Shown here piece after piece: positions 3,381 to 60,445 of a stretch of 64,000 nt of DNA (positions are counted from its first letter, which is position 1; each line of letters opens with the position of its first letter). Source of the DNA: Trichoplax sp. H2. Taxonomy: Eukaryota. Location of the stretch: positions 62,001-126,000 of the forward strand of contig NOWV01000148.1 of NCBI GenBank assembly GCA_003344405.1. Reading direction: 5' to 3'. The translations under genes and the position numbers were made by a program. The notes under the pieces are model-generated. The model saw only the letters and a list, made by a program, of their open reading frames with translations, did no database searches and was not told the DNA's origin.

Positions 3381-3806
3381 TGTTACAGTGGTATGGAAAT
3401 GTTCCGTGATAGGACATATCAGAATCTGACTATTTTGTATTTTTAGTCATTAGACGTCTGTGTTCGTAAATACCGTTGTCATTAGGCGGTGTTTCATTAG
3501 GCAGCACTAGGTAAAATTAGCTATTGATTCATAGGTAGGTTTCAATGTTTATATCACTAACTAGGATATCTAAACTATTGTAAAAGAGTATATAAATGCG
3601 GTATATCGCACAGTAAAGTTAATTCTTAACAATTAGTGTTTAACGTATAATATGAGGGGTCGAAGTCTTTGTGTAGTCTAATATTATATAATAATTATAG
3701 TAAAAAAGTTCATGATAGAGTAGATATTGCTCCCTGATACGCGGTTCAGGGGATTGACCTATTGATCGTGCATTACTTTACCTTGTAGCAAAGCTGTTTT
3801 GTCGCA
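3381..3806 (+). mobile_element. Solo LTR, family A, diverged and internally deleted variant
   Basis: Starts TGTTACAGTG, ends AAAGCTGTTTTGTCGCA; flanks GACGC/GACAC (5-bp TSD, 1 mismatch). Aligns to 13886-14514 but lacks about 230 bp near the 5' end. GAGTATATAAATG TATA retained. Confidence 0.85.
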
Positions 3807-13885: not shown

Positions 13886-14514
13886 TGTGACAGTGTTATA
13901 TACTGTATTACAGTAGAAATATCTATGCTAGGATTATTCTGTTAGCCTATCCTATTTAGTTAACTTCTAATTTGGATATACTGTGTTTTAATATAGCACT
14001 GACTTTTTATGACAGTGATACATATACTTATACTGAAATTAACGGTTATAATACGGAATGCAAATCATCTACATACAGTTCCAATCGTTGTGATTGTAAT
14101 TTACTTATGATAGATTGTAAATTATCGCGGAAATGTTCCGTGATAGGACATATCGTGATCTGACTATTCTGTATTAGTCACCAGATGTCTATGTTCGTAA
14201 ATACTGTTGTCTGCATTAAGGGAGCAGTAGCTAAAATTAATATCTAATTCAGTAAATAATTCCAAACTTAATCGTACTAACTATGACTCATAAACTATTG
14301 AGGAAGAGTATATAAATGCAGTATATCGTGTAATAAAGTGGATTCTTAAACTTAGCGTTTAACGTAAAATACGAGGCGTTTAAGTCTTTGTGAAGTCTGC
14401 TAATAGAGCAAAAGTGTTTCCGATAGTGCAGATATCGTTCCTTGATACGTGGTTCAAGGAATTGACTTATTGATCGTACATTACGTTTTCTTGTTGCAAA
14501 GCTGTTTTGTGACA
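13886..14514 (+). mobile_element. Solo LTR, family A (about 630 bp, Ty3/Gypsy)
   Basis: TGTGACAG...TTTTGTGACA; flanks ATCAT/GTCAT; TATATAAA at 14309-14316 and AATAAA at 14332-14337. The same family is attached to a PPT and Gypsy RNase H at 34451-35686. Confidence 0.92.
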
Positions 14515-17428
14515 GTCATAAATCAATATTACTCAAGTAACATTCACGCCTTCGAATAGAGTTGATAGTTCGTTCAGGAACTAAACTCGATGTGAATCAC
14601 AACTGCAGCCATGCTTGATTAATTATTTATAGCTTATTTATATTGTCCATATCAGTCTTTGGCGTACATATATACGCATTCCACAGAGTTCTTGCATTCA
14701 CAAGATAAAATCGAATAGTGTCCAAAAAGATAGCATAAATAAAGGGTACAGATCTATTATAAAAGTTTGCCAAAGATCTTTCCATAAAAATCTTGAATTT
14801 AGTTAAAATAAATAAAAACGAAGTAGTCTATATTTTCTCCACTGTATCAAAAAGAGTAAAACTTTTTAAGCAATGTGTAAATAAATAGTTTATAATTACG
14901 TTGAAGAAGCCATTTACAATTAAATATTCCCGATAAAGATTAAGGTTAAGACGTTTGATCTGAAATTTTATCAATTTGATACTTTGCTAGATTGAATATC
15001 AATCAGTATTTTGCGTGATTTATTCAGTTATATCAGTTAGCTAAATTTATTTTAATATTAATAAAAATAGAAGAGTCCACGTTAGCTCTACTACCATCAA
15101 GTAGAATAGCTTTTTTCAAGTAATATATAAATAAACCGTTTAGACTAGTGTAAAAATTATCATCTGCAACTTAATATCCTCCTTTATAAAGTTTAGGGCT
15201 ACCGACCTGAAACTCCTTCGATTTTATTTTTCTTTGCTAAGATGAATGTCAATCTGTATTTCAAATTATTTATTCAATTATATCAGTTTCCATCTCACTA
15301 CAGCCTTTTCTCTTCGTACAAAACTGTTCTAGATTGGTTTGTTTTAATTACAGCCTATTTTAAGTGCTGAAACTATTGCTGCTACTCAAGCAATCAAACC
15401 TTACTTGCTTTTAGGCGAATACTTATGTAGAAAATTTTCATATTCCATTAAACGTATGAAGTAGTAATCAAAACAGATAGAAATATGATTATAGAATTAG
15501 TCATTAGTTTCTATTAAATTATTTAGCTAGAAATAAATCGCTCATTTTTTACTTATCATTTTAATGCATTTCTGGGCACAGTTTTTAGTTACAATCACAT
15601 TAAAATAGGCAATTACTACAACGCTCGTGATGAACGTCTATTATAAAACTACGGTAAAGCCATAATCCAAAATTATCAAAGATGTACAATTACATGTCAT
15701 TAACTAAAAGTTCATTGTGCAAGATAGCTATTTATAGGGATTGCTTAGATTAAATCGATAAGTGACAAAACAAGGATCAATCATACGAAGAAAAATATAA
15801 ACCAAAAAATTTCTTAATGAATATGATGTTTAAAACTACTTCTGTCTGCTTTAATTTGTTATATTAATGAACTAATGATAAGAAGTAGCTGTTAGCGAAT
15901 GGGAATCACAAATATTAAGGACAAATCTATAGCAGAAACATGATAATATTAAATAACTAAAATCTCTAAAAGCTGGAATAATTTCATATTTAACTCTCTT
16001 TTAGTACTATCTTCTATCTAAAAATCAGTAAGTAGTATCAACCTAGTAGCCTAAATTAATTCAATTATTATCTCTCAAGAAGTCTAAATTTTAAATTAAT
16101 TATAATTCTGTACCATGCATGTAACGAATATCACTATTCACAACATTAATCTTACCTTTAATGGCGGCTAACTATTTTTAATCTAGGTCTGCTGAATGTT
16201 TTTCCAACCTTGGAAGTAACCGCAATTAGAAGTACTACTCTAAACGTAAAATTTGTGCTATTAAATCAGCTAGCAGTAGCATTTAAAACTAAGATTGATC
16301 TTTAAATTATACACGAAGCCAGCACTTGTTGACATTTCTATTTAGTAATGTAGAAATCATAGCAAGTTATAGTTTGTGAAATCATGGTAAACTAGCATCG
16401 GTAGCAAACGTACTGGAACTTTGTCGCATTTAATCAGTCCAGACAGACTATCATCATTAAGTATGCAAAGATATTTTGATTTAGTATCTGTTACTATGCC
16501 ATATTGTTTTCCCTACATCCAATCAAAATAGATCAGAAATTATACCCGATAATGACGTAATAGCTAACAAATTGTAAAGGAAGCCATACATCATTACTAT
16601 TATCAAACCATTATTTAGGAGTTCTTTTATTAACTTTTTGTTTTAAATGAGATGATGCGTCTTTATGCTATGAAAGCAGAACAAATAGTACAGCCTTTAT
16701 TTCTTTTAAATAAATAAAGTTTGTAATAAATCTTGCAGTAAAACTAGAAGTCTGAATCATTATGATATCATGAAGATGTAGAATATTGATTATAAAGGTC
16801 TAATTTATTTCATCACTAGTCCTTTTTATGCCCAGGTTTATATCATGAAATGGGCCTATTTAAATGATAAAATTCATAATTTAAGTGAAATTGATCAAGA
16901 ATAGCTTTCAGGCTTGCTATTAAAACCCAATCTTGCTTTGGTAGTACTCTATACGTTATATTAGGAGTGGCCAATATCGCAGCAATGACATCATTAAAGA
17001 CGGTATTTTATATAATATTTATTTACATCAATTAGTAGCTATTTTAAACATTAAATTTGATATAGGGTGAGCAATAGATTACAAATTTGCTTTCAGATAA
17101 AACTCAAACTTCATGAAATTCGTAGAATTTATATTATTAGGAGTAGACTGGTACAGGGACTAAAATAGTTGAAGCTATATCAACTGTAGTATAATAGTAA
17201 GTACCATACGATGCTATTACCAATACTTACTTCTTAATGCACTGTAATCTAAACGTTTCAAAATACCAAAAGAAACTTTCAGATTAGATTTGTAATATCA
17301 AATTAGCATTTAAAAAAGTTCCACTGGAAAACCTAACGTTATCGGTATTAATTAATTAAATAGCTAATAAAAAATAACCTCTAAAGTATACATTACTCTA
17401 AGTCTATTGATGGCTTCCGTTTCTCAAT

Positions 17429-18090
17429 GAGGTCTTGCGATAATTTCAGTTTCAGAATAAATTATACCATGTAAACTATGAAATCGTCTTAGTATCTAGC
17501 TCGCATGTGGTCAAGTCGTATCCATCTTCCTATCGAACATGCATCTTAAAGAAAGTTACAGTAACAACCTCTAAACTATAAATTATTTCTAGTTTACTAA
17601 TTACTTCAGTGTTGCAATGAGATCTTACAGTAACTCTAGCATAAGAAATAATTTAAGCAACACAAACTAACTGATGAGCATATTACTCAACTAACATCCT
17701 ATCAAGTCATTTCCATCTTAAAATCAACCTTAACATACTACGGTAATTAAAAAAAATTTCTGTAAAAACCCTTAAACCATGCTTCATTCCTATATTATTA
17801 ATTGCTTTCGTTTTACAATAAGGTCTTACAGTAACTCCAGCTTAAGGAATAAGTTAGGTTATGCAAAATATATCAACGTTATAGTATCTTACTTATATGT
17901 ATTAAAATACTACCCAATTTTATGTCATACATGCTACTTTAAGAAAAATTATTTCAACAAGTTTTAAGGCATGCCTTAATTCTAGTCTATTAGACGTTTT
18001 TATGTCGCTTTGAAGTCTTACGGCAACCTTAGCTAAAGAAATGAATTAGACTATGCAAACTATTGCACTAGCTTAGTGCCTTACTTATAT
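17429..18090. repeat. Degenerate tandem array, about 195-bp period, 4 units
   Basis: Motif GTCTTACAGTAACTCYAGC..AAGAAAT.A.TTAG..ATGCAAA recurs near 17429, 17619, 17820 and 18013. Confidence 0.65.
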
Positions 18091-18924
18091 CTAATTGAAT
18101 CATTTCTGTCTTAATAGCAAGCATACTACCTTAAGAAAATTATAATATTCAGACATGGTTTCATAAATTACAGATTTGGCCATGCTTCGACAATGCAAAC
18201 AGCTAGAATTTACAGTGTGATGTAAGCTAAGCCTATAAATTCATTTAAATTAATACTTAAAAGCTATGATATTTTAAATATAGTATGAAGCATCGGTTTT
18301 TCTTACTTTGCTTCTAGTGGCGCAATTGGCCACGCTAACAATTTTTTAGTATGGTGAAGGCTATTTGGTGAGTTTCGACAATATTCATATTGAATTCGAG
18401 ATGGAAATCTACGTAGTAACGATAAAGCTGATATTTAGCATAGGTAAATAGTAATTCATGATTTCAAACTAATATTTGTTATTAGATCTGATCTAATTTT
18501 GAAATTTATGAAGTATTCGAAAAGGAAAAATAAATCACCGATATTTAATCTAATTGCCGTAATTAATTCATTTTGTTCCTCGTAAATACTATAGCAAATT
18601 CGCTAAATACCCCTAGCAATTGCACTGGCAATCAACTTATAAATTCAGGTAGAAATGCTTCGAAATTAACAAACGCGTATATCATGAAAATAGTTTGAAA
18701 ATCGTGGTCAAGGTTTGTCGCTATGAAATACAGTCAAGGTAGCTAATAACAAGCTAAAGATAGTATCAAAAATATGCTTTTAGACATCATATGTCAATTA
18801 GTATAGCAATGATAAATTTTGAAATAAGAGGATGTGGCGATCGACTTTGCTTGGTTGAAATATACAACATTTTGGTTGAAGAAATACGTGCTTTGAACAT
18901 AGTATTAACAGTTGTTCATATCAG

Positions 18925-19337
18925 TGTTACGATACGAACTACCGTGAAGAAATAGCTATCTAAATTTGGTTAATATAATATAATATAGTGATAATATATT
19001 ACATCTAGTTCCTTACAATAGGAATTACTCTAATTATAAATGTGTTACAGTTAATTTAATGCTGTGCTGTAATGTGTACTGAAATGATTCTGTGAATGGA
19101 CATTTTGTAGTCCGACTGTGAAATATAAGATGACTTGTGAATGTTAGCTGCTGTAGAAGGGTATATAAGTCCGTCAGATATTTGAATAAAGCTTTTTCTC
19201 AATTGTATAGTTGTTTTAACGTAGAAGCAAAGGCATCTAAATTCTTTTGAGGTAGTTCAGGGATACTGAATCCCGGAAGACTATAGTAATTTCGAGATTT
19301 GTTTTACGTTATCCTTTCACGGAGCTGGTTTGTGACA
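18925..19337 (+). mobile_element. Solo LTR, family B
   Basis: TGTTACG...TTTGTGACA; perfect TSD ATCAG; GTATATAAG near 19161 followed by AATAAA near 19185; small internal deletion relative to the other B copies. Confidence 0.92.
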
Positions 19338-21230
19338 ATCAGGTACTTTGGACTTTTAGCACCATAAACTCTAATTCTAATTCAGCAACTACTTCAACAA
19401 CCAAGGTAGTATTTTCTAATTTGTATTAATTTATGATGAAATATACAATGCAAAGATCTTCTTTATTAAAATAAATTTAAATAATTAAATAAATCTCTAA
19501 TACTATTCGGCTATAAATAAATTGAAGGATCTATGTAATGGACTAGTAATAATCTTTTGCTATTACTGTTGGTCCGCCTACGTAACGTAAAATTTGAGTG
19601 AACAAAAATTAAGTAATACCGTAATGTGGCTACGAAGGTCAACACCGAAAAAATAGCCTTGAATAATAATATTTATTGAAACATCAATTTGTCGCAGAAG
19701 ATTTCCAATTTCTTTTCCTCATAAAAGCAATCGAAAATGACTAAAGATAACCGGATAATACCCCTTAGACAGATTTGAACATAAATTACTTCTATATAAA
19801 CTATGCTAATAAATGCTTTTATTATAGTAGTAGACATACAATTAAACACATTAAAAGCTCGATTTATTATCTGGCTAAGATAAACCGAATAATTATACTT
19901 TAACTCTTATATGGAAGACAGTCTATTTAATCCTATATTTGGCTATCAGATACGGCCTTAACAGGAGAGTCCCGGTCTTATACTAGAAATAGTGCTAGTG
20001 CGACGTCTCATCCTGTTAGCCATCCTACTGTACCAATACAATTCTTTGAAATCATTACAACCTAATTTAATTAGAAACATTTTACATTTATATCAACATT
20101 GGATTTACTGGTAAGGCGGTACTTCTCTTAGGTATTAGTAGTTTTAAAGATCTGCAATACATTAAGATATTGATTGTACGAATATGCTCTATTTTCGTGA
20201 AATATATCAGTTTGAATAGCACACACAAATTTCTTTCTATCGTTAGCAGTAATGAAATTAGAATGAATTCATCCTAATCGATATAATTGGATAATATTTG
20301 CTTAATGATATTAGTTATAACCATTCTATAAAATATGATGGCAGAATATGAATGTAATTAAACTATAAGATTTAAACTCAATAAATATATACTTTTATTC
20401 GAAATCAATGTTGAAACTTAATTCGATAAAACATAAAAGGTAAGATTTGAATTAAGTTCGATAACAATACTATATCATGCTTTAATTAAATAAGAACAGA
20501 TAAGTATGAAAATTGCCAGTCATTTACCTGATCATATTTAAGAATTTCTCCGTTAAAACAGCTTACTCTAGATTTTAAATTGATCTGACATAAAGTTAAA
20601 TAAATAAATCATTTTTTTAAGTCGAATTAACAACTGCTATATCCTATACTAAGAATTCTATTAATTCGGTAATTTTACAGGTAAGGCCATGGTTATGCTA
20701 TACCTATGTTCTATGTTCATATATGCTAAAGACTGCTGTCGTTGTTAATGTATTCAATTAAATATTGGAATTTATTAAGCTTGAGTTATAATATAGATCA
20801 AAAAAGTATTTCGAATTCTTTCCGTCCTCTTTCCAGGATTACTGTATTGATTGAATAGATTATCTATTGATGTAGTAACTTGTGTACCGCAAATTTTATT
20901 AAATTAGCAATAGTAATTGGATTAAATTTATTTCCATGCTCCCTTCAAAAGGAAAAGATGGCTATTTCGATCTATTTAATCGTTATCAAGTGTAAAGAAA
21001 AATGGTATATTACAGACTCCTCTTCTGTTTCCGTAATTTTCTGGTCACATCGAAAAAGATGAAAAAATTATTCTTTATCTTCCTAATTGGCAATATCTGA
21101 AAGATACATAAGTCAATTAATTTTTTTCATGTTGAACTTGCTAACACGATGCCAGCCACGTATCAGTAGCCACATTTTCCTATTATGTCTATGTGGCAGC
21201 TAAAGTTCCATCTTCTTCTGGAATGGTAGT

Positions 21231-21759
21231 CGTGATATATACCAATCACGAAATTCCAAATTTTAGAAAAATAAGGGCTTTATTCAATCTTATACAAAGA
21301 TTAACTACACACCACTCTACTCTAGCCGAATACTGCTACTAAAGACTTCTAGAACGAACTAACTGAATAATCTGAAGTTGCATGCTTTTATACTTTTCGT
21401 AGCATTCGCAGCTACAATCCGCATGGCAACCTTTTACCTTATTTTACACATAGTTAAATTATTCTTAGAAAGACTATTCTACTGCGGACTATCATTAATC
21501 CAATATGGATACGATTACAGTACTTACGTAGACATTATTCACACCAGCCAAAGTACAATGAATTAATGATATCCTAATATATGATTTATAGTTCTATTTT
21601 TACCTATAGCCTTATTATTAAATTAACTCAACACCTTACTGCATATAGTCATCTGTACTCTAGCATAGAGTCTCTACCACTACAGTCTATAGTTATAGCT
21701 ACCAAATATCTCTTAGGATAAATATCTACCGTACATTATACTAAACTAGTTACATTACA
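21231..21759 (-). mobile_element. Solo LTR, family D
   Basis: CGTGATAT (mutated TG) ... ATTACA; perfect TSD GTAGT; near-identical to 30065-30616. On the - strand, GTATAAAAG (about 21385-21393) is followed by AATAAA (21279-21284). Confidence 0.88.
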
Positions 21760-25640: not shown

Positions 25641-26134
25641 ATATTGTTAACACTTCAATTTTAATCTCATTCTTGCCAAAATTATTTTATGATAGCCTTA
25701 AAGCGATGTCGTGCAATCGATTGTCTAAGTTGATTTGCTACTATTCTTACTGACTGCTACTTATTAATATATATTCAGGTTACTCAAAAGATTCAAAGTT
25801 GGCCTAAACCAAAACTGAATTGGTAATACTTCATCTTTTGCATTTCAATACGTTGAAACTAAAGTATATATCATCGTGTTTATAGCAGTTACCGATGTCT
25901 ATTCTTTAGCAATAGCGAGAATTCTAAATAAAATGATTCTATCACAAAAAATCATTCTTGGTCTTTTACTACGATCAATTCTGAACACACTCAGATAGAG
26001 ATAATTTAATTTGTACAAATTATACTTACATAGTCATCATATCAGCTTGATCCTTATAGCCGCATTTAGAAATTAATTAAAAAAGCAGAATTCAATTTGG
26101 AAATCGACTAATATCAGTCTGATTGATCATCATC

Positions 26135-27199
26135 ATGGTGATAAACTGTACGCAAGATTGCCTTGTTCGTGCCGAAAGCATGAGCGAATCTTACGATTAC
26201 TTACGTATGGTTTATATCATTATCTGTTTTTTCTCATTTTTTGGTAATTGTTTGGTTTGTGTAATTATTTTTACGATTAAACGCATCCATTTGCTATCGG
26301 CTGAAGTCTTTATTCTGAGCTTAGCCATTACCGACATGTTTACAAGCATTGTGGTGATATTTTTGCCTGGTTTGATCATATCGGAAAAAAGTTATCCCTA
26401 TCCTATTAGGTCGGTCATGCCTTTCTTTTGCTCCATCGTTAGTTCCCAATATCTACTCTTCTATTTTGGATTTATATCGCTCTACACAGTGACAGCAATT
26501 AGCCTAGAGCGATGGTTTGCAATTGCATTCCCATCGCGCTATCGCTACTTATTTAGTCTAAAAAATGTTCAGATTGCAGTTCTTTTCATCTGGCTACTAG
26601 GCTTGCTCTTGCCAATAGACAATCTATTTAAGCAAGTTCCAAGCGAAAATGGAACATTTTGCCGCTGGACTTTCTTGTTCAACGATATTAATATCGACCG
26701 AATGATTTTTATTATAGTTGAAATCATACGTGTCTTTTTGCCAGCTTTCATAACCCTGTTCTGCTACGCCGATATTGCTCGTCGTATCTGGTCTGCTTCT
26801 GCTTATCAAAGTCAAGAATCTTCAAACCGAAATAGTAAATTTCGTAAGCGCGTTACGATTATGGTCTGTGTTTCTGCCATTACATTTTTGTTGTGCTGGT
26901 TGCCAAATGAAATCTATTTCACTCTTGTTACATTTGGCCTTACGCGAGTAGAATCCGTAGCTCATAGATCGACTAAATCACTGATTATCCTTAGCTCTTG
27001 TCTAAATCCAATTATTTATGTGGTTACTAATTCCAAATATCGCGTGACATTACTGCAATTTTTTACTCGACGAAATCGTATTAGCTCATTAGGCACCAAG
27101 CAAGGCAGCAAACCATCGAAACCCAAATCCGATGTTATCGTTGTTAAACCACGTAATGGTCCAACATCATATAGCAGATTGCATAATACAGCTGTATAG
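26135..27199 (+). CDS. Class A (rhodopsin-like) GPCR, single exon, orphan; paralogue 1
   Basis: Seven hydrophobic segments; GN (TM1), LAITD (TM2), ERW (TM3), CWLP (TM6), NPIIY (TM7). First ATG at 26135 (the track starts at TTG 26123) and gives an N-terminal NCT sequon. Confidence 0.95.
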   Translation: MVINCTQDCLVRAESMSESYDYLRMVYIIICFFSFFGNCLVCVIIFTIKRIHLLSAEVFILSLAITDMFTSIVVIFLPGLIISEKSYPYPIRSVMPFFCSIVSSQYLLFYFGFISLYTVTAISLERWFAIAFPSRYRYLFSLKNVQIAVLFIWLLGLLLPIDNLFKQVPSENGTFCRWTFLFNDINIDRMIFIIVEIIRVFLPAFITLFCYADIARRIWSASAYQSQESSNRNSKFRKRVTIMVCVSAITFLLCWLPNEIYFTLVTFGLTRVESVAHRSTKSLIILSSCLNPIIYVVTNSKYRVTLLQFFTRRNRISSLGTKQGSKPSKPKSDVIVVKPRNGPTSYSRLHNTAV

Positions 27200-30064: not shown

Positions 30065-30616
30065 TGTAATATATACCAATCACGAAATTCCAAATTTTAG
30101 AAAAATAAGGGCTTTATTCAATCTTATACAAAGATTAACTACACACCACTCTACTCTAGCCGAATACTACTTCTAAAGACTTCTACAACGAGCTAACAGA
30201 ATAATCTAAAGTTGCATGCTTTTATACTTTTCGTAGCATTCGCAGCTGCAATCCGCATGGCAACCTTTTACATTATATTATACATAGTTATATTATTCTT
30301 AGTAAGACTATTCTACTGCGGACTATCATTAATCCAATATGGATACGACTACAGTACTTACGTAGACATTATTCACACCAGCCAAAGTACAATGAATTAA
30401 CCATATCCTAATATATGATTTACAGTTCTATTTTTACCTACAGCCATATTAGTAACTCAACACCTTACTGTATATAGTCATCTGTACTCTAGCATAGAGT
30501 CTCTACCACTACAGTCTATAGTTATAGCTACCAAATATCTCTTAGGATAAATATCTACCGTACATTATACTACACATGGCTAACAGTCTACAATCACAAT
30601 ACTAAGTTACATTACA
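30065..30616 (-). mobile_element. Solo LTR, family D
   Basis: TGTAAT...ATTACA perfect 6-bp inverted ends; flanks ATGAC/ATGAT; matches 21231-21759. Confidence 0.9.
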
Positions 30617-33883: not shown

Positions 33884-34450
33884 ATAGTGCAATATCGCAT
33901 CTTGAATTAGTTATATCGCTGACTTCGGCATAATTAATTGATAACAATCCATTTAGTATGACATAATTCAAAAGTCATAAGTAATAATAATAGTCAGTTA
34001 ACAATTGAGGATTGCTGTCTACAACTGTCATGGACTACTCTTCTGACAAGGGAAGAAGTAAATTATTCTGTTCCTCTAAGTTGCTAGTGTCAACCACTAT
34101 TTTACTTTCCGCCTAGAACTTCCCTTCTAGGATGTAGTTACACAGATAAACTACACAACGTGGAGCTACTTTTACTTTATTTCAACTAATTCGAACAACG
34201 CAATGTACTCGTAAAAGACTACAGAAATCATCTGCTAACGAGCAATATTCGTAATTACAAGTCAAATCGTAAAAGTTTAGTCGACCCAACTTATATAGGT
34301 AGAACTATAGGCAAAAACATCATTCTTTGTTTAATTATAGATAAGAGAAAGATAAGGAGTCTGGAATTCTGTTAATAGACTCCCCACACAGTTCTTTAAG
34401 ATTAAACATACTAATGGGTGTAGCCGGTATGGAAAATATGCAAATGACTT

Positions 34451-35083
34451 TCTCACAAAACAGCTTTGCAACAAGATAACGTAATGTATGATCAATAAGT
34501 CAATTCCTTGAACCACGTATCAAGGAACGATATCTGCACTATCACAAACACTTTTGCTCTACTAGCAGACTACACAAAGACTTATACTCTTCGTATTTTA
34601 CGTTAACCACTAAGTTTGAGAATCCGCTTTATTACATGATATACTGCATTTATATACTATTCCTCAGTAGTTCATGAGTCATAGTTAGTACAATTAACAT
34701 AGGAATCATTTACTGAATTAGATATTAATTTTAGTTACTGCTCCCTTAATGCAGACAACAGTATTTACGAACATAGACATGTAATAATGACTAATACAGA
34801 ATAGTCAGATCACGATATGTCCTATCACGGAACATTTCCACGATAATTTACAATCTACCATAAGTAAATTACAATCACAATGATTGAAACTGTAAGTAGA
34901 TGATTTGCATTCCCTATTATAACTATTAATTTCAGTTTGTGTATAAGTGTCACTGTCATAAATAGTCAGCGCTATATTAAAACACAGTATATCCAAAGTA
35001 GAAGTTAAATAAATAAGGATAGGCTAACAGAATTATCCTAATATAGATATTTCTACTGTAATACAGTATATAAGACTGTAACT
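34451..35083 (-). mobile_element. 3' LTR, family A
   Basis: Full-length reverse complement of 13886-14514 and 54369-54998, with both terminal dinucleotides mutated; abuts a PPT rather than a TSD. Confidence 0.93.
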
Positions 35084-35095
35084 TTCCCCCACCTT
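35084..35095 (-). promoter_or_regulatory. Polypurine tract (plus-strand primer)
   Basis: - strand AAGGTGGGGGAA immediately 5' of the family A LTR. Confidence 0.85.
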
Positions 35096-35206
35096 AAACT
35101 GTGGTCAGGGTATCATATTTTTAACATGAAGTACATCACAACATGAAATAATACAGCGCTAAAATAATAATTATTTTGTAGTGTCATTTTAACTATTGCT
35201 TAAACG

Positions 35207-35686
35207 TTACAATAATCTAGACAAAGTATCAGCAGCACGGTTATCTTTACTGGGGCGATGCTTTATATCGAATCGATATTGGTCCACAGCCAGGGCCTAT
35301 CGCATCAGTCTTTGGTTATGATTCTTCATCCGATGTAACCAAAGTAAGGGTTGGTGGTCCGTGTAAAGCATAAAATATTGTTCTTCTAAATAGACTTGGA
35401 AGGAGCGTAATCCCCGTACCAACGCTAGATATTCTTTTTCAGTTGTTGAATAATTTTTCTCAGCTGCAGTTCATTTTCGACTTGCATAAGCCACAGGGTG
35501 TTCGGTATTATCGTAAACTTGCATAAGCACAGCGCCTATGCCCAAGTCTGAAGCATCAATTTGCACGGAAAACGGTTGATCTTCATTTACTGCACGCAAA
35601 ATTGGTTCTTTAGTTAGACATTGTTTGAGTTCTAGGAAGGCTTGTTCGCAGTCTTTTGTCCATCGGACCTTTGTTGGTAGCGAGTC
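35207..35686 (-). pseudogene. pol: Ty3/Gypsy pol remnant: RT connection plus complete RNase H
   Basis: One frame: WTKDCEQAFLELKQCL..PIL..FSVQIDASDLGIGAVLMQ..HPVAYASRK*TAAEKNYSTTEKEYLALV..YTDHQPLLWL..RLMR*AL..FDIKHRPSKDNRAADTLSRLL*. Premature stops at 35471-35473 and 35297-35299; final TAA at 35207-35209. Confidence 0.95.
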
Positions 35687-38600
35687 ATACACGAACGAAT
35701 AAATCATATAGAATCAATAATATGTATGAAAACCTATCAAGACACAAATACTTAATTTGTACTGTATCATTCACGGTGTAGTTGCACCGCGACAACAACA
35801 TAACAATCTCTAATAATATTTTTAATCACACGATAGTATTTTGCAAGGTGAATTATAATTTTTACAGTTATTCTACTATCTTAGATTACTACTAGCTATT
35901 ATCAAATAGCTTCAAGCTCAGTAACACATATATTTAATAAATTTATAAATATAATAATAGCGTGTAAATTTACCGTTGGCATTATGTGAAAACCGCAGAT
36001 TCTATTACTAGTAGCCGCAGCTAATAAGCTTGCAGATTATCTTATAGCATGATAAAGCAAATTATTAAATTAATGCAGAAGTGGTCAGAAACAAATATCT
36101 ATAATTCTTCTCTAACGTTATTAACCAAATAAGGGAAGCGCAGTAGGACCCATCACGCACAAACAGTTCTATTCTTATCGTTGTGTGATACTTTCTTTTT
36201 TCCTTGGAGGTAATATTTGAATTGGATACTATACAGATATTAGCGAGGGACGAAATATTTGAACGAATTATTCATCTAGTCCTCCTTGCTTAATTTTATT
36301 AAACTATAGCATATTTTGAACCTCAGATCTGAATGGCGTAGTAGAAGTTTATTTACTTTTACTTTATTCTTCTCTAACATTCTACAATTTTTCCAGTCAA
36401 TATCTGATTAATAATAGATACCTTATCGTCAATATCCATCATTAATGATGAACTCTGTCTGAGATAAGTAACTGAGCCATAAATGCCCAGTCTTACAGGT
36501 GGAATAAGGAAAGAATTATTTATCAATCAGAAGCCAAATTTGTAACATTTATTGAAATATTGTGATTGTCATTTAAAAGATGTATAAGAGCCATGGGCTT
36601 AATTATGTTACATGTCAGCATATTGTGTAAACTTTGATAATTACATCTATTTACATTTCGCGTCTGACAATTGAGCTGACAGAAAGTCAAGCTTAAAATT
36701 TGTTGAATTATTAATCGAAGCCGGTACAACGCTGAAAATGATAATAGTAGCTTTACGTCAATAAGAACGAAGAATTAGTCATGATATAATAGATTTGTAA
36801 TTATGTCTACTATTTAGAAATGAGAGCGCAGCTGCAACCGTAAATAACTAATATATCTTCTTTCTACTCTGATCTACTCTTTAAATTATTTAACATCCGC
36901 AGAAGCTTACACAATCATCGATTGATTATTTAAGCAAACAAAAGTGTTAAACTAATGATGAACTCACGGTCATTAACGAGCTGTTTCAGTTGTGCTTGAT
37001 GCCGATTTAATTCATAAATAAGGTTTGCGCTAATTTCAGCATGTACAATTAATGTTCGTCGATAATAACTGTGATCGTGGATAAATTACTAGGATAACTA
37101 TGGAGGAAACGGGTTCATTGAACGTTAAGAAATAAAACGATCAGTTTCGCTTGATCTTTATCGTTTACAGATTCTAGCTGAATTTGACTAGCTCATTGCT
37201 GCTAAAGAAACATACAAAAAGTAGTAATTCTCCTCGTAATGAGGTCCATTGATATCCACGTTAATCATTATCATAGTAATTAAAGTAATAGAAATAATAA
37301 AATGATGATATACTATTTCAAACTATTTAATAATGCTATTATTACTCAAATTTTCCAGTTCTCGTTCCAGCTGCTAAGCTATAAGGTCAATGCCAATTAT
37401 TCTCAGGCTTATACTAACATAAATCATACGTATTAAGAGCAACATATAAATTCAGTAATAAAATTCTTATATGAGTCATTTCTCTATTTATTTCCATTAT
37501 AGTGCTGTGAAAATTTCATAATACAAGGTAAAACTCTGAAGTAGGTAGGAAAACTAAAAATTGTGAACGTTTGAGCATTGCGTGTAAGTAAAGATTATGA
37601 GGCATATGTATATAAAAGATGTAGAGTTAAGATAAGTTTTGAAAATGTTTTGTATCTTATTAATATCAGACTTGCTTGTTAGACAATTTTAACCTAAACC
37701 TTCAAATAAATCGTCAATTCTACTATTGATCGAGTCGCATTGTGCGGAGTAAATGCGATTCTGATTCCTAAAAGAATCAGTACGTTCAAGCTTTAAATAC
37801 TAGCTTATATTTTTTTCTAAATTAATAATCAAACCTCTAATTCATATAAAATTCCAGCAATAATATGTACCAAGAAACAAGTTGATATTTGGTTAATTTA
37901 TTTTATCTTAGGATTAAATAAACTTATAGTAGCTTCGTCATTCTATTTATGCAAACCTTAAAGACTAGACTTTTAGATATTTAAAGCTTACTATATCATG
38001 AACGGGATAGGTAGTAGCATTTGGATTATGGATCCTGTATAATAAAATTTTATTGATTACTAACAGTCTTCCTTAAGTTTTGGATCAAAAATTAATTTAG
38101 ATAAAGTGTGGCATATAAATCGTGTCAAACCATGTTAAACCATGTTATCCTAAAAAGATACATCGTAAACAAGTATCAAATAAACAATATACAGGGAAAT
38201 GTTATTACTATTAGTAATATTTCTAAAATCCATTGTTGTATCGAAGAATAAGCTGTTCTATTTTCAATTTTTTAAGCAAAACATCCACTGATATTTCTGG
38301 TATTTTACTCCTACTTTTATTTACAGAAATGTTTTAAATTCAGTCGAGAACGTTAAGTAAATTTAATAAATTATCCTCATGTACAAGTATAGCTTTATTT
38401 AAGTTTAACAATGATCCCTTAAAAGACCCTTTAACTTTAATTCAACTTTTCTTAAATCTAACTAGTCAATAATAAACGATAGTTCTATAATGTATTTTAG
38501 AAAGTAAAATTCTATTTTGAAGAAAGACCAGCTAGTTTGAATAAATGGATAATAGAATCAAATGGCATTCGTAGTACTTACTTCTCAGATAATCAATTTG

Positions 38601-41600: not shown

Positions 41601-42551
41601 CTTATCAATGTTTATGTTATCTATACTTACTAAATCTATATTCAAGGTAAATCTAAACATACTTTTGAAGGAATCTTTAATTCTACTCCGTAGGCAATAC
41701 AGCTACCAATTTATTAATAAATATCGATATAGATACAAATTCCATAATATAGAAAATCATATTGATATGTCAGCTATGGACTATCTGGTATCCAATTATG
41801 AACCTATGTTGCTATGATCATGTTCTTGCCATAAGTGGACATAATTTAGTTCATTCATTCAGAGGAAAGTACGTCTGCTGCCTATTTTCTATATCTGTTT
41901 ACCAGGGAAACTGATTATTACAAGCCATTATTTTTTTCCAAATTTAATTTATTAATTACTTCATTACTTTACAGTATATGAAAGCATTATCTAATAATAA
42001 CAGATTTTAAATATAACAATTTCACAATTAATTGCCTTATCAAGATACCAACTCTGATTTAATAAGCAATAAAAATTTACTGTCCTTTTTGATAGGGCTA
42101 ACTGCCTTTCTAACCATTCAATTATTTTGATTTAATCGCATGGGCGTATACAACTAACAATAGTCCAACTTATATCGCTTATAATATAATCTGAACATAT
42201 TTAAATAGATTCTCATAACTAAATTACATGAATTAAAATTTAACACAATATCTAAAAGCAAGTTTCCGTAATTAATATATGAGAAAAAAACTTCATCAAC
42301 AATGTGCCATTATATTAGCAATGGCTGTTTCCAAAGAGTTACATTTCCGTAAATACTTCATTTTTGAAAAACAGTAATCTCTAATAACAGAAATTTCTAT
42401 TTTATAGACTATACCTTTCATTTGCCACTATTCTAATTTTCTTAACGAAAATATTTACGGATCAAATTTTCAAATTCGAATTGATTTGGAGATTCCCTTC
42501 ACGAAATTGGAAATTTCAATACTGCGAATTTCATATAATACAAGTATCGAG

Positions 42552-43676
42552 ATGGAAAATTGCATTTCTGCAAATTGTTCAAATCATAGCACACTCCAAC
42601 CAGCAAATGTTTCGTCACGAGATGAAATTTATAAGATTTTCAATATCCTTTATGCTATTATTTCAGCCTTAGGCATGACAGGTAACGTTCTTGTATGCTG
42701 TATTGTTACTAAAACTAGGACCTGTCAATTTCAATCCACCGAAATGTTTATACTGAGCTTGGGAGTTACTGACATGCTTGCTAATCTGGTCGTTATCTTT
42801 TTGCCGGATTTAATAATACCGAATAGTTTATATCCGTATCCTATAAAACATCTTGCATTTTTTTGCCCATTTATTGGTTCTCAATACCTTTTATTTTATT
42901 TTGGATTTACATCCCTTTATACGATGATGGCAATAAGTTTTGAACGCTGGTGTGCTATTGCTTTTCCTTCTCGATATCGGTCTATATTCAAAGCTACCAA
43001 CGTCAAAATTATAGTGGCTTGCATCTGGATATTAGGTTTGCTATTGCCAATTGACAATTTACTTAGATATGTGGAGAATAAAAACGGAAGTACACCATGC
43101 CATTTTATCTTGCTAAGTAATGATCAATCTTTGGATTTAGCAGTTTACTTAACATTGGAAATTACTCGGGTATTTTTACCAGCTGCAATAATTATTCTTA
43201 TTTATTGTGATTGTGCCAGGCGTATTTGGTCTACAACAGTTCTTCGTCAGTCGAGCATAAGATCAAACAGGGACGTAAAAATTCGCAAAAGAGTAACATT
43301 AATGGTGTGTACATCCGCCATCGTATTCTTAATGTGTTGGCTACCAAATGAAATCTACTTCACTTTAATCAATTTTGGTTTGGCAAGATTAGAATCCGTT
43401 GGACATCGATCAGCAAAGACGTTGATAATTTTAAATTCATGTCTTAATCCATTTATCTACTTTGCTACAAATTCCAAATACCGATTGGCTATCAGGCAGG
43501 CGTTTACGTGTAAAAAAGGGGTTGCCTCTTCTCCTACTTCTTTAATAGAAGTGGAATGCAAAGCAGTAACTATCATCAGGTGTAGCCAAAATTCGCCTAA
43601 ACCAGTAAAGATAACTTCAGTTACAAAGATCAAAACGGACATCGAGCTTCATCTAGCCGATGTTTGTGAATCGTAA
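42552..43676 (+). CDS. Class A GPCR, single exon, orphan; paralogue 2
   Basis: 7TM; GN, LGVTD, ERW, CWLP, NPFIY. First in-frame ATG at 42552 (the track starts at TTG 42486), followed by NCS/NHS/NVS sequons. Confidence 0.95.
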   Translation: MENCISANCSNHSTLQPANVSSRDEIYKIFNILYAIISALGMTGNVLVCCIVTKTRTCQFQSTEMFILSLGVTDMLANLVVIFLPDLIIPNSLYPYPIKHLAFFCPFIGSQYLLFYFGFTSLYTMMAISFERWCAIAFPSRYRSIFKATNVKIIVACIWILGLLLPIDNLLRYVENKNGSTPCHFILLSNDQSLDLAVYLTLEITRVFLPAAIIILIYCDCARRIWSTTVLRQSSIRSNRDVKIRKRVTLMVCTSAIVFLMCWLPNEIYFTLINFGLARLESVGHRSAKTLIILNSCLNPFIYFATNSKYRLAIRQAFTCKKGVASSPTSLIEVECKAVTIIRCSQNSPKPVKITSVTKIKTDIELHLADVCES

Positions 43677-46600: not shown

Positions 46601-47298
46601 AGATATTAGATTTCATTAATTTTATTTCTCAGATCGATTTCCAAGATTACTTCTCTTTAATTATGCTAATATTTATGCATTAGCTTTATCTAATCCAGTA
46701 ATCATATATAAAGTAAAGATCAGCAACAACAGTTTACTGATACCTAAATAACGCTAGTCTAATAATTTTTAGACAATGTCTTTACTGAACTAAGAAAGAT
46801 CTATAAGATAAATAACTAAACACTATCGAGCTACTTCGTGAATGCGAAATAAATGGTAACGTGCTTTATAACATAGGAATATTAGAACGAAAATAAATTA
46901 GTGTTTAGATAGATTGATACCAGCCCTTAATTATTATTATTAAGAATTCACCTAGCACAGAATGTATGAGCATCTTACTATCTTGTTGAATTGTAATTAT
47001 TTCTTAGAAGTACATGCATCCTTCCGGCAATAATGCACAATGCCCACTGTGCATGGCTTAATAAAATAATTTAATTAGATAACTTAGGGTAATTTTCAAA
47101 AGTAAAATTTAAAAATTATCGGTCAATAATTAATTAATCATATCGCTTTAAATAATTTCGCTCATGAAAGTTATTAGATCAAACCATGAAGTAAAGTCTA
47201 AATAACTAATATGTGCCATGCAGTAGAATAAAATTTAAAATATTTCAGTTATGGTTTTTATGTACCGTTTTCCTGCATTACGTTAAATACATAGTCAC

Positions 47299-47714
47299 TG
47301 TGAGGTTGATAGATCAAGAATCTTCAAAGTTTTAGAAAATTAAGATTTATTGAACAAAACCTCGTTTACGAAGGTATAACGTAATCGATTAGCTGAGGAC
47401 CTCTATCGAGAAAGAACTCCCTTACTATACTAAACTACTCGCTTATATACTTTTCCACGTTTACAGTCTTAGCACCTTTACTTACTACACACTTCAGTAT
47501 TAGCATCTTAAATACAGGCTAGTTTACACCTTTCACGTGAAGCTCTAGTGTGAGCACTGTAGCACTCCTCTTCAAAAGGATTACAGTTACTAAGCTAGCT
47601 ATATTTAATACTTAAGCTTCTAGCGAGAATATCAATCCCATGCTGAACACAGCCTTACGGTAGACATTACTAAATATATCATCAACTTAAAATACAATAT
47701 TACACTGTCTTACA
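47299..47714 (-). mobile_element. Solo LTR, family C
   Basis: TGTGAG...CTTACA; perfect TSD GTCAC; matches 60034-60445. - strand GTATATAAG at 47442-47450 and AATAAA at 47346-47351. Confidence 0.92.
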
Positions 47715-50365: not shown

Positions 50366-50630
50366 GATAATTCTATTAGACTATCCTTATTTAGTTAACT
50401 TCTAATTTGGATATACTGTATTTTAATATAGCACTGACTTTTTATGACAGTGACACTTATACACATACTGAAATTAATAGTTATAATAGGGAATGCAAAT
50501 CATCTGCTTACAGTTCGAATCATTGTGATTGTAATTTACTTATAGTAGACTGTAAATTATCATGGAAATGTTCCGTGATAGGACATATCGTAATCTGACT
50601 ATTCTGTATTAGTCATTATATGTCTACGTT
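50366..50630 (+). mobile_element. Partial family A LTR (5' part) next to an assembly gap
   Basis: Matches about 13933-14195. Bounded by the N run at 50346-50365 and fused at TTC to a second copy of 50099-50345 (50629-50875). Confidence 0.88.
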
Positions 50631-51349
50631 CTGAGTTGAGTAGTGCGAGTAGTCACAGATGTATCTATGCTAACAAAAGTTTTATCTTTACGGAGTTTGT
50701 TGTGTGTGTTTAACGTTTGGCATTAGAGCATTTATGTCAGTAGCTACCAATAGACTTTTACGTTTCATTTCCGTGTCGCAGAGTTTACATTATGACATAT
50801 GGCTAGAATGATTTCGCAACTCAACATGATCCTTAATTAATTGTTAAACGAGTAAAGTGCCTGGTCAATAACGTTTCTTTATTCTCCATCTTGATAATTG
50901 GATAGTATCATTATAATAGATTTAAACTGTGAATTGATACACACAGCCTACGGATATGTACAGTAATTGTACACCCACTGGTAGACTATTTAAAAATTTC
51001 AGTCAGTGAGCTTTGCGTTCATATTGTAATCGTCTTCTTTTCTAGCCACACGTTTCCGTATTCTTCATCTTGATAGATAGATGCAATAATTACAATAAAT
51101 TTATATAGATACTAGTAAACCGCTAAAAAATTTATGCTTAATTATAAATATACTCCCAACAGCTTCTCGGTTTAATATACTGTATACAAGTGGCAGTAGG
51201 CAGCCTCCTGATCCGTAAAGCTGTCAATACTGTACCATTATGCGCTATCAGTATAAATGTTGGTATTCTATCGTAGTTTACTATATAGCACAATAATACC
51301 GCATTCTGCGCGTGAAATACTGTTTTTGGATGCGGTGCTCGCACTATAG

Positions 51350-52125
51350 TATGACTAATAGAAACATAAGTCAATCACTTACTACGAGTTCGGCCTTCTC
51401 AGCCAATCAAATACCATCGTTTATGGACACACATGAGAAATTGGGACCCAATCTTTTCATCATATTGTATGGATATGGATATGAACATGTAATAAACTGT
51501 CACAAATAATATCTGCTTCAATGCATCACTTATCTTACCTAGCGCTACAAATACGAATACATATTGTATGAATAATAGAAAGATAAGCCAATCAGTTACT
51601 ATGAGTGTGGCCTTCTTTGTCAATCAGATAATATCGTTTGCAGACGCACATGAGAAATTAGGACCCAATCTTTTCAATATACTGTATTGTATGGATATGG
51701 ATATATAATAAAATGTTATAAATATTATCCTCGTCAATTCATTACTTATTTTACCTAGCACTAACAATATGAATACATATTGTATGCATAATAGAAATAT
51801 AAGTCAATCGGTTACTATGAGTACGGTCTTCTTAGCCGATCAGATACTATCGTTTGCGGACGCATATGAGAAATTAGGACCCAATCATTTTAATATACGG
51901 TATCATATGGATATGAATTCATAATTATCTGTCAAAAATAAAGTTCGCGTCAGTGCTTTACTTATTTTACCTAGTACTACAAATATGAATACATATTGTA
52001 TGAATAATAGAAACATAAGCCAATCACTTACTATAAGTACGGCCTTCTCGGCCAATCAGATGCTATCATTTGTGGACGCACATAAGAAATTAGAACTCAA
52101 TTTTTTTAATATATAGTATGAATGA
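51350..52125. repeat. Tandem array, 216-217-bp unit, about 3.6 copies, CCAAT-rich
   Basis: TATGAATAATAGAAA..TAAGCCAATCA-type unit starts at 51350, 51567, 51783 and 51999. Confidence 0.92.
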
Positions 52126-54368: not shown

Positions 54369-54998
54369 TGTTACAGTGTTATATACTATATTACAGTAGA
54401 AATATCTATGTTAGGATAATTCTGTTAGCCTGTCCTTATTTAGTTAAATTCTAATTTGAATACACTGTGCTTTAATATAGCACTGACTTTTTATGACAGT
54501 GACATATATACACATACTGAAATTAATAGTTATAATAGGGAATGCAAATCGTTCACTTATAGTTCGAATCATTGTGATTGTAACTTACTTATGGTAGATT
54601 GTAAATTATCGTGGAAATGTTCCGTGATAGGACATAGCGTAATCTGACTATTCTGTATTAGTCATCAGATGTCTATGTTCGTAAATACTGTTATCTGCAT
54701 TAAGGGAAAAGTAGCTAAAATTAATATCTAATTCAGTAAATGATTCCAATGTAAATTGTACTAACTATGACTGATGAACTATTGAGGAAGAGTATATAAA
54801 TGCAGTATATCGTGTAATAAAGTGGATTCTTAAACTTAGTGTTTAACGTAAAATATGAGGCATTTAAGTCTTTGTGTAGTCTGCTAGTAGAACAGAAAAG
54901 TGTTTCTGATAGTGCAGATATCGTTCCTTGATACGTGGTTCAAGAAATTGACTTATTGATCGTATTACATTATCTTGTTGCAAAGCTGTTTCGTGACA
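54369..54998 (+). mobile_element. Solo LTR, family A
   Basis: TGTTACAG...TTCGTGACA; flanks ACAGG/GCAGG; collinear with 13886-14514. Confidence 0.92.
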
Positions 54999-57773: not shown

Positions 57774-58748
57774 ATGGTACAAAACGATAGCGTTCTTAAT
57801 ATGATGGACAACTGTTCTGACTACCATAGCTCCCAAAAAATCTCTGGCCTTCATCCTGTTTATGGCATATTATCCGTCTTGGGAATTATTGGAAATGGGA
57901 TAGTATATCGAGTGATTAGGCAACAGAAAGGATCTAATGCACAATCAGCTGAAATATTTATCACCAGTTTAGCGGTTGCCGATATGCTAACTGGATTATT
58001 CGCTATAGCTGTACCCGATTTTGTTATTCCTTACAAATATTATCATTATCCATCAATAGGTTTACCAGTTTTCTGCGCTATGGTCAGCTCGCAATATTTT
58101 ATATTTTACTTTGGCTTCATATCATTATATACGATAGCAGCTATTAGCTTTGAACGATGGTGCGCTATTGCAGTTCCTTCGAGTTATCGCTGTTTATTTC
58201 AAGCTCATCGCACCAAACGTTATGTCATGATAATCTGGTTAGTCGGGTTAATCTTTCCTATTGACAATATATTTAAACATGTATTGGTCAATAAAGATGG
58301 TTGCGGCCGTTGTAGATGGACCGTGATGTTTAATAATGATAGCATCGAAAGGATTGTCTTTCTGAATTTAGAACTTATTAGAATCTTCCTTCCAACTATT
58401 TTAATTGTATTTTTCTATGGTGACATTGCTAGACGTATTTGGTCTATAAATTCGCATTTTCAAAATCGTGATACTTTTTGTATCAAAATTACGGTTATGG
58501 CTTTCTTTGCAGCATTCGTTTTCTTATTATGTTGGATACCTAATGAATTATATTTCACATTAGTTATCTTTAAAGTTACCAAAATGGATTCGGTAATACA
58601 TCGAACAACGAAATCCATGATTATCTTAAATTCATGCTTAAATCCAATCATTTACATGTCTGCAAATTCAAAATATCGAAAATGCTTTAGGCAATGGTTA
58701 TTGGGTCACAATCGAACTACTTTTGTTGCACCCAAAATGGCAGCTTAA
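57774..58748 (+). CDS. Class A GPCR, single exon, orphan; paralogue 3
   Basis: 7TM; GN, LAVAD, ERW, CWIP, NPIIY; shorter ICL3 and C-tail than paralogues 1 and 2. Confidence 0.95.
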   Translation: MVQNDSVLNMMDNCSDYHSSQKISGLHPVYGILSVLGIIGNGIVYRVIRQQKGSNAQSAEIFITSLAVADMLTGLFAIAVPDFVIPYKYYHYPSIGLPVFCAMVSSQYFIFYFGFISLYTIAAISFERWCAIAVPSSYRCLFQAHRTKRYVMIIWLVGLIFPIDNIFKHVLVNKDGCGRCRWTVMFNNDSIERIVFLNLELIRIFLPTILIVFFYGDIARRIWSINSHFQNRDTFCIKITVMAFFAAFVFLLCWIPNELYFTLVIFKVTKMDSVIHRTTKSMIILNSCLNPIIYMSANSKYRKCFRQWLLGHNRTTFVAPKMAA

Positions 58749-60033: not shown

Positions 60034-60445
60034 TGTGAGGTTGATAGATCAAGAATCTTCAAAACTTTAGAAAATTAAGATTTATTGAACAAAACCTCCA
60101 TTACGAAGATACAACGTAATCGATTAGCTGAGGACCTCTAACGAGAAAGAACTATCTTACTATACTAAACTACTTGCTTATATACACTTCCTCGTTTACA
60201 GTCTTAGCACCTTACTACACACTTCAGTATTAGCATCTCAAATACAGGCTAGTTTACACCTTTCATGTGAAGCTCTAGTGTGAGCACTGTAGCGCTCCTC
60301 TTCAAAAGGATTACAGTTACTAAGCTAGCTATATTTAATACTTAAGCTTCTAACGAGAATATCTATCACATGTTGAACACAACACCTACGGTAGACATTA
60401 CTAAATATATCATCAACTTAGAATACAATATTACACTGTCTTACA
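60034..60445 (-). mobile_element. Solo LTR, family C
   Basis: TGTGAG...CTTACA; perfect TSD CTAAC; matches 47299-47714. Confidence 0.92.

What the first reader, a model, noticed from the sequence alone, without database searches (positions are those of the whole stretch)
34451..35686. Gypsy element whose pol ends at RNase H: Gmr1-like (integrase before RT) architecture
Seen: Gypsy-type RNase H ends ADTLSRLL-stop at 35207, followed after only about 110 bp of AT-rich sequence by a PPT and the family A LTR. There is no room for integrase. Known: canonical Ty3/Gypsy order is PR-RT-RH-INT, while the Gmr1-like clade has PR-INT-RT-RH and was first described in fish and other deuterostomes. Inference: family A is Gmr1-like, which would be notable in an early-branching animal. 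This fragment also identifies the anonymous 630-bp repeats in the window as its solo LTRs.
Basis: partly seen in the sequence, partly recalled or inferred. Interest (0 to 1): 0.75.

Follow-up and report, generated by a model that had tools for sequence, protein, structure and literature searches.

The report
Dead Gmr1-like retrotransposon end in Trichoplax
This is the broken tail of a jumping gene of the known Gmr1 type, whose integrase sits in front of the reverse transcriptase, and it explains hundreds of anonymous 630-base repeats in a placozoan, extending a known animal transposon lineage to this simple animal.

Summary
Confirmed. On the minus strand a Gypsy RNase H (two in-frame stops) ends at 35207, followed by 111 bp, a polypurine tract and a 633-bp LTR. 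A second, independent insertion (C251) has the same junction. Its nearest relative is a Trichoplax element on C754 with order gag-PR / INT-RT-RH; the two RNase H domains are sisters (97/99) and fall among integrase-first polyproteins, though an AU test did not reject the alternative (p 0.12). Family A's own integrase was not found, so its order is inferred. The LTR has 269 exact 18-mer hits genome-wide; 15 of 27 examined copies carry perfect 5-bp TSDs; only 2 PPT junctions exist. The remnant is nested in another solo LTR and is dead. The 2010 'Tag' clade of Trichoplax is probably Gmr1-like (Ta8 RT 78% identical to C754; no Gmr1 in that paper's panel). Gmr1 is already known from crustaceans, annelids and flatworms, and sponge database proteins share the order, so this is a range extension. 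The scan noted abundant solo LTRs in this genome before, on other DNA, but not their Gmr1 identity.

The parts
35210..35681 (-). RNase H remnant of the family A pol (tether plus RNase H), broken by two in-frame stops at 35473-35471 and 35299-35297; homology to the relative starts about 35677
   Evidence: Pfam PF17919/PF17917; 57% identical to C754 RNase H
35207..35209 (-). Natural pol stop codon, one codon after the ADxLSR motif
   Evidence: same stop in the C251 copy; 126 of 130 integrase-first homologues end within 40 aa of this point
35096..35206 (-). 3' untranslated spacer, 111 bp
   Evidence: with flanks 89% identical to the C251 copy over 162 columns
35084..35095 (-). Polypurine tract abutting the LTR
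   Evidence: pattern found twice in the genome, both times directly before a family A LTR
34451..35083 (-). 3' LTR of family A, 633 bp, termini mutated (AG...GA), no TSD partner
   Evidence: mean 93.6% identity to 25 other copies
34026..34449 (+). Left part of an unrelated solo LTR ('family F') that hosts the remnant; starts TG after target copy ACAAC
   Evidence: 25 genome matches
35682..35794 (+). Right part of the family F solo LTR; ends CA before target copy ACAAC; about 105 bp of F are missing at the junction, which shares 5 bases with the remnant
33954..35926 (.). Outer, older LTR-like fragment split into 33954-34025 and 35795-35926; matches the LTR that follows another RNase H end on C1007
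   Evidence: 83% and 74% identity to adjacent stretches of L031
35669..35973 (-). Putative GT-AG intron (305 nt) of an RNA that joins flank 36156-35974 to the RNase H remnant and runs into the LTR
   Evidence: one contig of one RNA run, X17 record 15; splice-site letters
13886..14514 (+). Family A solo LTR, TG...CA, 5-bp TSD with one mismatch
54369..54998 (+). Family A solo LTR, TG...CA, 5-bp TSD with one mismatch
50366..50631 (+). Partial family A LTR (93%)
3394..3806 (+). Diverged relative of the family A LTR, 3' part (73%)

Best explanation
The stretch is the dead 3' end (RNase H, spacer, PPT, 3' LTR) of a Gmr1-like Ty3/Gypsy retrotransposon, a lineage whose pol runs PR-INT-RT-RH, so that RNase H is the last domain. 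How the family worked: RNA from the 5' LTR was reverse-transcribed (tRNA-Leu priming is shown for the C754 relative, inferred for family A), the PPT primed the second strand (inferred from position), and integrase inserted the copy with a 5-bp duplication (shown on solo LTRs). Recombination between the two LTRs then removed almost all internal regions and left hundreds of solo LTRs (inferred from 269 LTR hits against 2 PPT junctions). This copy inserted into an older solo LTR; a later deletion, probably joined at a 5-base microhomology, removed its 5' LTR, gag, PR, INT and RT plus about 105 bp of the host LTR (junction shown, mechanism inferred). It cannot move by itself.
For: Second independent copy with the same RH-stop-PPT-LTR junction and a different 3' flank. 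Best non-self match in the genome is C754 at 57% (1st of 26 others), where Pfam puts H2C2 101-141, rve 173-268, RVT_1 575-734, RNase H 799-927 in one 949-aa frame. All 4 loci seen with both integrase and RT or RNase H (C754, C401, C307, C698) are integrase-first. All 17 RNase H ends examined stop within 29 codons (includes near-duplicate loci). In 239 homologues, integrase-first proteins end a median 6.5 aa after RNase H (126 of 130 within 40 aa), integrase-last ones at least 215 aa (n=72). Trees: window+C754 SH-aLRT 98 (74 rows) and 97/99 (36 rows); canonical-order rows split off at 100/98. 15 of 27 near-full LTR copies have perfect 5-bp TSDs, 5 more one mismatch. C754 PBS matches the 3' end of two tRNA-Leu genes.
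Against: No family A copy with integrase, RT or a 5' LTR-PBS junction was found (0 of 19 rows; 0 of 11 PBS junctions), so the order is not read directly for this family. The AU test did not reject placing the window RNase H with the canonical-order rows (p 0.122, 155 columns). C754 has a different LTR and only 57% RNase H identity, so it is a sister family. No named Gmr1 reference was in the trees. In the RNase H-only search 72 of 119 new hits were integrase-last, although the best scores were integrase-first (174-192 bits against 152).
Confidence: 0.92

Rival explanations
1. Family A is a canonical-order Gypsy whose master copy lost integrase (a non-autonomous deletion lineage), and both surviving 3' ends descend from it.
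For: Only two 3' junctions exist and no family A integrase was found; AU test p 0.122.
Against: The stop falls one codon after the RNase H end motif, as in integrase-first proteins and 16 other RNase H ends of this genome; the RNase H is sister to an integrase-first element; no integrase-after-RNase H locus was seen among the fetched loci.
Confidence: 0.04
2. Integrase-first order arose separately in the Trichoplax families, so they work like Gmr1 but are not in its clade.
For: No Gmr1 type sequence was in the trees; the C754 capsid matches SCAN only weakly (E 0.018, 15 bits against cut-off 27); integrase-first rows were not one starred clade; C754 has gag-PR and INT-RT-RH in separate frames with a host-like insert between them.
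Against: C754 pol is 43-50% identical over most of its length to SCAN-bearing PR-INT-RT-RH polyproteins of amphioxus, echinoderms and sponges and to a sturgeon protein; the weak SCAN hit covers 87 of 90 profile positions just before the zinc knuckle, the expected place.
Confidence: 0.05
3. The LTR is an unrelated solo LTR that landed by chance just behind an RNase H fragment.
For: Family A solo LTRs are common (269 hits) and insertions here are nested.
Against: A PPT abuts the LTR; the same RNase H end, spacer, PPT and LTR recur on C251 with another 3' flank; neither LTR has a TSD pair, unlike solos.
Confidence: 0.01

Closest known systems
Gmr1 clade (Gmr1-like) of Ty3/Gypsy (Metaviridae)
   Same: Integrase upstream of RT (PMC8220671, PMC3587641, PMC6238403 passages); SCAN-PR-IN-RT/RH order (bioRxiv 10.1101/2025.03.03.638093 passages). 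Pol ends at RNase H; Gypsy-type RT/RNase H; TG...CA LTRs; 5-bp TSD.
   Different: Host is a placozoan; my searches found no paper placing Gmr1 there. Family A survives almost only as solo LTRs. The C754 relative has a SCAN match below cut-off and a 248-bp host-like piece between PR and INT.
'Tag' clade (Ta1-8) of Trichoplax gypsy elements, Wang et al. 2010 (PMC2871265)
   Same: Ta8 RT and C754 RT are identical at 137 of 176 positions without gaps (78%; my hand count). Ta5-Ta7 look similar by eye.
   Different: Tag was defined on RT fragments against 23 references that include Osvaldo but no Gmr1; domain order, LTRs, PBS and TSD were not described in the parts I read. The paper called the elements inactive and found no true LTR elements.
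Sponge SCAN-PR-INT-RT-RH polyproteins (Amphimedon P0038, Halichondria P0005, P0094)
   Same: Same domain order and about 48% identity to C754 pol for P0005 and P0038.
   Different: Single gag-pol frame with a clear SCAN domain; database entries are named only generically, not as Gmr1.

Membership tests
Ty3/Gypsy LTR retrotransposon | Gypsy-type RNase H | tested here: met
   PF17917/PF17919 far over cut-off
Ty3/Gypsy LTR retrotransposon | LTR with TG...CA ends, PPT before the 3' LTR, 4-6 bp TSD | tested here: met
   TG...CA in most copies, 15 of 27 perfect 5-bp TSDs; PPT at 2 junctions. The window copy's own ends are mutated.
Ty3/Gypsy LTR retrotransposon | tRNA primer-binding site after the 5' LTR | tested here: inconclusive
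   Met for C754 and 10 other junctions (tRNA-Leu); none has a family A LTR directly upstream
Gmr1-like clade | No integrase between RNase H and PPT | tested here: met
   2 of 2 family A junctions
Gmr1-like clade | Integrase upstream of RT in the same element | tested here: inconclusive
   Met for the sister element C754 and 3 other loci; no family A internal copy found to test
Gmr1-like clade | Groups with integrase-first Gypsy elements in phylogeny | tested here: met
   RNase H trees, (sister to C754 97/99; split from canonical 100/98); AU test p 0.122 does not exclude the alternative
Gmr1-like clade | Groups with the named type elements (cod Gmr1 and GyDB/Repbase references) | not testable with these tools
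   No tool returned those sequences by name
Gmr1-like clade | SCAN-like capsid C-terminal domain in gag | tested here: inconclusive
   C754 gag PF02023 E 0.018, under cut-off; family A gag not available
Tag clade (Wang 2010) | RT groups with Ta1-8 | tested here: inconclusive
   78% hand-counted identity of C754 RT to Ta8; no joint tree built; family A has no RT

The most novel reading that the evidence does not exclude
Integrase-first (Gmr1-like) Gypsy elements are the main LTR lineage of placozoans and are what was named 'Tag'. With sponge copies, the rearranged pol order would date to before the bilaterian split, near the base of animals. In Trichoplax these families moved recently (solo LTR pairs up to 99.7% identical) and were stripped to solo LTRs at more than 100 to 1, which would explain why the genome was read as nearly free of active LTR elements. 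This particular remnant may also have been captured as the 3' exon of a spliced RNA.
Probability: 0.5. Interest if true: 0.55.

Novelty: new member of a known kind. Interest (0 to 1): 0.38.

Why it matters
It gives hundreds of unclassified Trichoplax repeats a parent, probably folds a supposedly placozoan-specific clade (Tag) into Gmr1, and extends the lineage that gave tetrapods the SCAN domain to a non-bilaterian phylum. If all 269 hits were full-length LTRs they would make about 0.18% of the genome, against 0.04% (PMC2871265) and 0.11-0.16% (PMC6057997) reported for all LTR retrotransposons. It does not reveal a new mechanism.

Tried and rejected
Search for a family A 5' end: the pattern LTR-end + TGG gave 19 rows; the two real PBS loci (C47, C174) belong to other LTR families that share only the last 17 or so bases. 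The tRNA-Leu PBS pattern gave 13 hits: 2 tRNA genes and 11 junctions, none with a family A LTR directly upstream. Same-strand LTR pairs on C267 and others held no pol. Pfam rve gave 5 places; only C754 aligned as Gypsy pol, C546 is Polinton-like. The RNase H-only protein search found no family A polyprotein; its best single-domain hit was the C754 protein. Contig depth over the RNase H part was similar to the unique flank in three DNA runs (about 37 vs 50, 33 vs 32, 14-19 vs 21), a hint, not a proof, that no collapsed multi-copy internal region is hidden. Four short window motifs were not in the 2010 supplement 2, whose cells are cut at 400 characters. The careful C20 tree did not finish (one search reports the quick tree). 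The idea that C754 is a contaminant was rejected: it carries 248 bp that match C231 at 98% and its RT matches T. adhaerens Ta8. Recent horizontal transfer was not supported: best non-placozoan identities are 40-50%. Literature searches 'Gmr1+retrotransposon' (112 papers, 40 listed), 'Gmr1-like' (12), 'Trichoplax+LTR retrotransposon+gypsy' (4), 'Tag clade' (1) and searches showed no listing that links Gmr1 to placozoans; subscription papers, Repbase and GyDB were not searchable, and Emerson and Thomas 2011 was not held.

Full report
Observation. The minus strand from 35686 to 35210 translates as a Gypsy-type tether and RNase H, with in-frame stops at 35473-35471 and 35299-35297. Read with X at those stops it scores E 2.1e-35 on PF17919 and 5.5e-35 on PF17917. 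The frame ends ADTLSRLL-TAA at 35207. A 111-bp spacer, a purine tract (35095-35084) and a 633-bp repeat (35083-34451) follow. The repeat recurs in the window at 13886-14514, 54369-54998, partly at 50366-50631 and, diverged, at 3394-3802.

The repeat is an LTR. A genome search gave 684 candidates, of which 40 were scored, giving 40 non-self matches at 93-94%. An 18-mer present in 25 of 27 examined copies has 269 exact matches, with 0 for the reversed control; this counts partial copies and misses diverged ones. Of 27 near-full copies (mostly best hits, so biased to well-kept ones), 15 have a perfect 5-bp target duplication and 5 have one mismatch. The other 7 are the two PPT-bearing LTRs, three copies at gaps or contig ends, and two on C267 without a pair. 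Pairwise identity among 325 pairs averages 95.3% and reaches 99.7%. The window's LTR averages 93.6% to 25 others and has mutated ends.

Is this copy merely deleted? The family A PPT pattern occurs twice in the genome: here and on C251. The C251 copy has the same last RNase H codons, stop, spacer, PPT and LTR at 89% identity, and a different 3' flank. So the missing integrase is a family trait. Seventeen RNase H ends from several families were inspected (some are near-duplicates, two end positions were extrapolated); all stop within 29 codons, and many show a purine tract and TG soon after.

Domain order of the relatives. The best of 26 non-self RNase H matches is on C754, 57% identical. That contig holds an LTR end, a primer site, a gag-zinc knuckle-protease frame, and a 949-aa frame with H2C2, rve, SH3, RT and RNase H in that order, ending at a purine run at the contig edge. 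Its LTR is not family A. Three decayed loci (C401, C307, C698) also have integrase upstream of RT or RNase H; I saw none with the canonical order among the loci fetched. A database entry for the C754 protein is labelled Trichoplax, which names the host as a placozoan. Of the 120 best homologues of C754 pol, 119 are integrase-first (expected in part from the query), including named sponge, amphioxus, echinoderm and sturgeon proteins. Pfam confirms SCAN-PR-INT-RT-RH for Amphimedon P0038 and Halichondria P0005. In the independent RNase H-only search, 72 of 119 new hits were integrase-last, 11 integrase-first, 30 without integrase and 6 multi-copy; yet the top scores in the pooled set were integrase-first (192 and 174 bits against 152). 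Integrase-first proteins end a median 6.5 aa after RNase H; integrase-last ones at least 215 aa. The window frame ends 1 aa after.

Phylogeny. A 74-row RNase H tree (quick search, C20 model; 32 of 129 integrase-first and 36 of 69 integrase-last rows) put the window with C754 at SH-aLRT 98, and 35 of 36 canonical rows in a group without it (94). A hand-picked 36-row tree, without five long-branch canonical rows and one partial local row, gave 97/99 for the pair and 100/98 for the split between orders. The AU test for holding the window with the canonical rows gave a 20-unit likelihood loss but p 0.122, so 155 columns do not formally exclude it. No named Gmr1 sequence was available.

What was not found. 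No family A 5' LTR with primer site, gag, RT or integrase turned up. The primer site of C754 and ten other junctions is complementary to the 3' end of tRNA-Leu genes; two of those other families share family A's last bases. Integrase-first order for family A itself is therefore an inference from its 3' end and its sister family.

History of this copy. The flanks 34026-34449 and 35682-35794 are the two halves of another solo LTR with a perfect ACAAC duplication; intact copies elsewhere have about 105 more bases between them. So family A inserted into that LTR, and a later deletion took its 5' three quarters and part of the host LTR, joining at 5 shared bases (inferred). That host LTR sits in a still older LTR-like fragment. 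The locus is present in runs of two organism labels, whose contigs differ from the window at several places, so it is not settled that both breaks are fixed. One RNA contig of one run covers 36156-35972 and 35666-35054, which fits a GT-AG intron at 35973-35669 on the element's sense strand. This is a lead only.

Comparison with print. Gmr1 elements are Gypsy elements with integrase upstream of RT; passages read report them in cod and Ciona, an annelid (PMC8220671), crustaceans (PMC3587641) and 40 Gmr1/Osvaldo families in a flatworm (PMC12801592), and call the clade present in several phyla (PMC8556966). SCAN derives from their gag (passages in bioRxiv 10.1101/2025.03.03.638093, PMC8321522, PMC3424704). 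Passages of PMC6238403, PMC3670739 and PMC2836005 added no placozoan record. The original Gmr1 papers and Emerson and Thomas 2011 I did not see. Wang et al. 2010 (PMC2871265; parts 1-2 of 4 of the text, part 1 of 2 of supplement 3, the first rows of supplement 2) named a new 'Tag' clade from Trichoplax RT fragments using 23 references without Gmr1, and judged the elements inactive. By hand count Ta8 and the C754 RT agree at 137 of 176 positions, so Tag is probably Gmr1-like; a joint tree is still needed. PMC6057997 (passages) reports 0.11-0.16% LTR content and mostly unclassified repeats. My eight literature searches listed nothing that places Gmr1 in placozoans, but Repbase, GyDB, subscription papers and unread supplements may. 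Earlier notes of this scan describe abundant solo LTRs in this genome without a parent clade; word and sequence look-ups for Gmr1 found none.

Verdict. It is a new member of a known kind. The value lies in the range extension, the likely Tag = Gmr1 correction and the evidence for many, partly recent, solo LTRs in a genome described as transposon-poor. A specialist would find it useful more than surprising: interest 0.38.

Noticed in passing
L004 2789-3036 (G000:C754) and L039 4920-5167 (G000:C231): The integrase-first element on C754 carries 248 bp between PR and INT that are 98% identical to a stretch of C231; one frame has a weak PADR1 zinc-ribbon (PARP-type) match, E 0.0076. Host-sequence capture, or an assembly join.
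   Followed up: partly
window 36156-35054, minus strand: One RNA contig (X17 record 15) joins upstream flank to the RNase H remnant across a GT-AG intron; an ATG lies three codons before the junction in the RNase H frame, which in this assembly closes at the first premature stop. One contig, one run.
   Followed up: partly
window 33954-35926: Triple nesting: family A remnant inside a family F solo LTR (perfect 5-bp TSD) inside an older LTR-like fragment.
   Followed up: yes
L005 1-9000 (G000:C546): Polinton/Maverick-like element: rve integrase and a run of compact ORFs that look like protease, capsid and packaging ATPase (these names recalled from motifs, not scanned).
   Followed up: no
L014 (G000:C267:20000-29999): Four family A LTR pieces in 10 kb; the 5 bases before one copy equal the 5 bases after another, which suggests a rearrangement between copies.
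   Followed up: no
L090-L102: Eleven LTR-PBS junctions share one tRNA-Leu primer site across several LTR families; three loci besides C754 hold gag-like matches to C754 gag.
   Followed up: partly
window 5580-6030, 18923-19338, 60897-61351; 21232-21746, 30066-30575; 47297-47714, 60032-60445: Three further dispersed repeat families; the first begins TGTCAC like an LTR.
   Followed up: no
window 26123-27199, 42408-43676, 57774-58748 (+); 8244-9923 (-): Three related single-exon GPCR-like ORFs and a single-exon ADAM-like metalloprotease ORF (names from motifs by eye, not scanned).
   Followed up: no
window 51345-52123 and 17356-18062: Tandem arrays with periods of about 216 and 190 bp.
   Followed up: no
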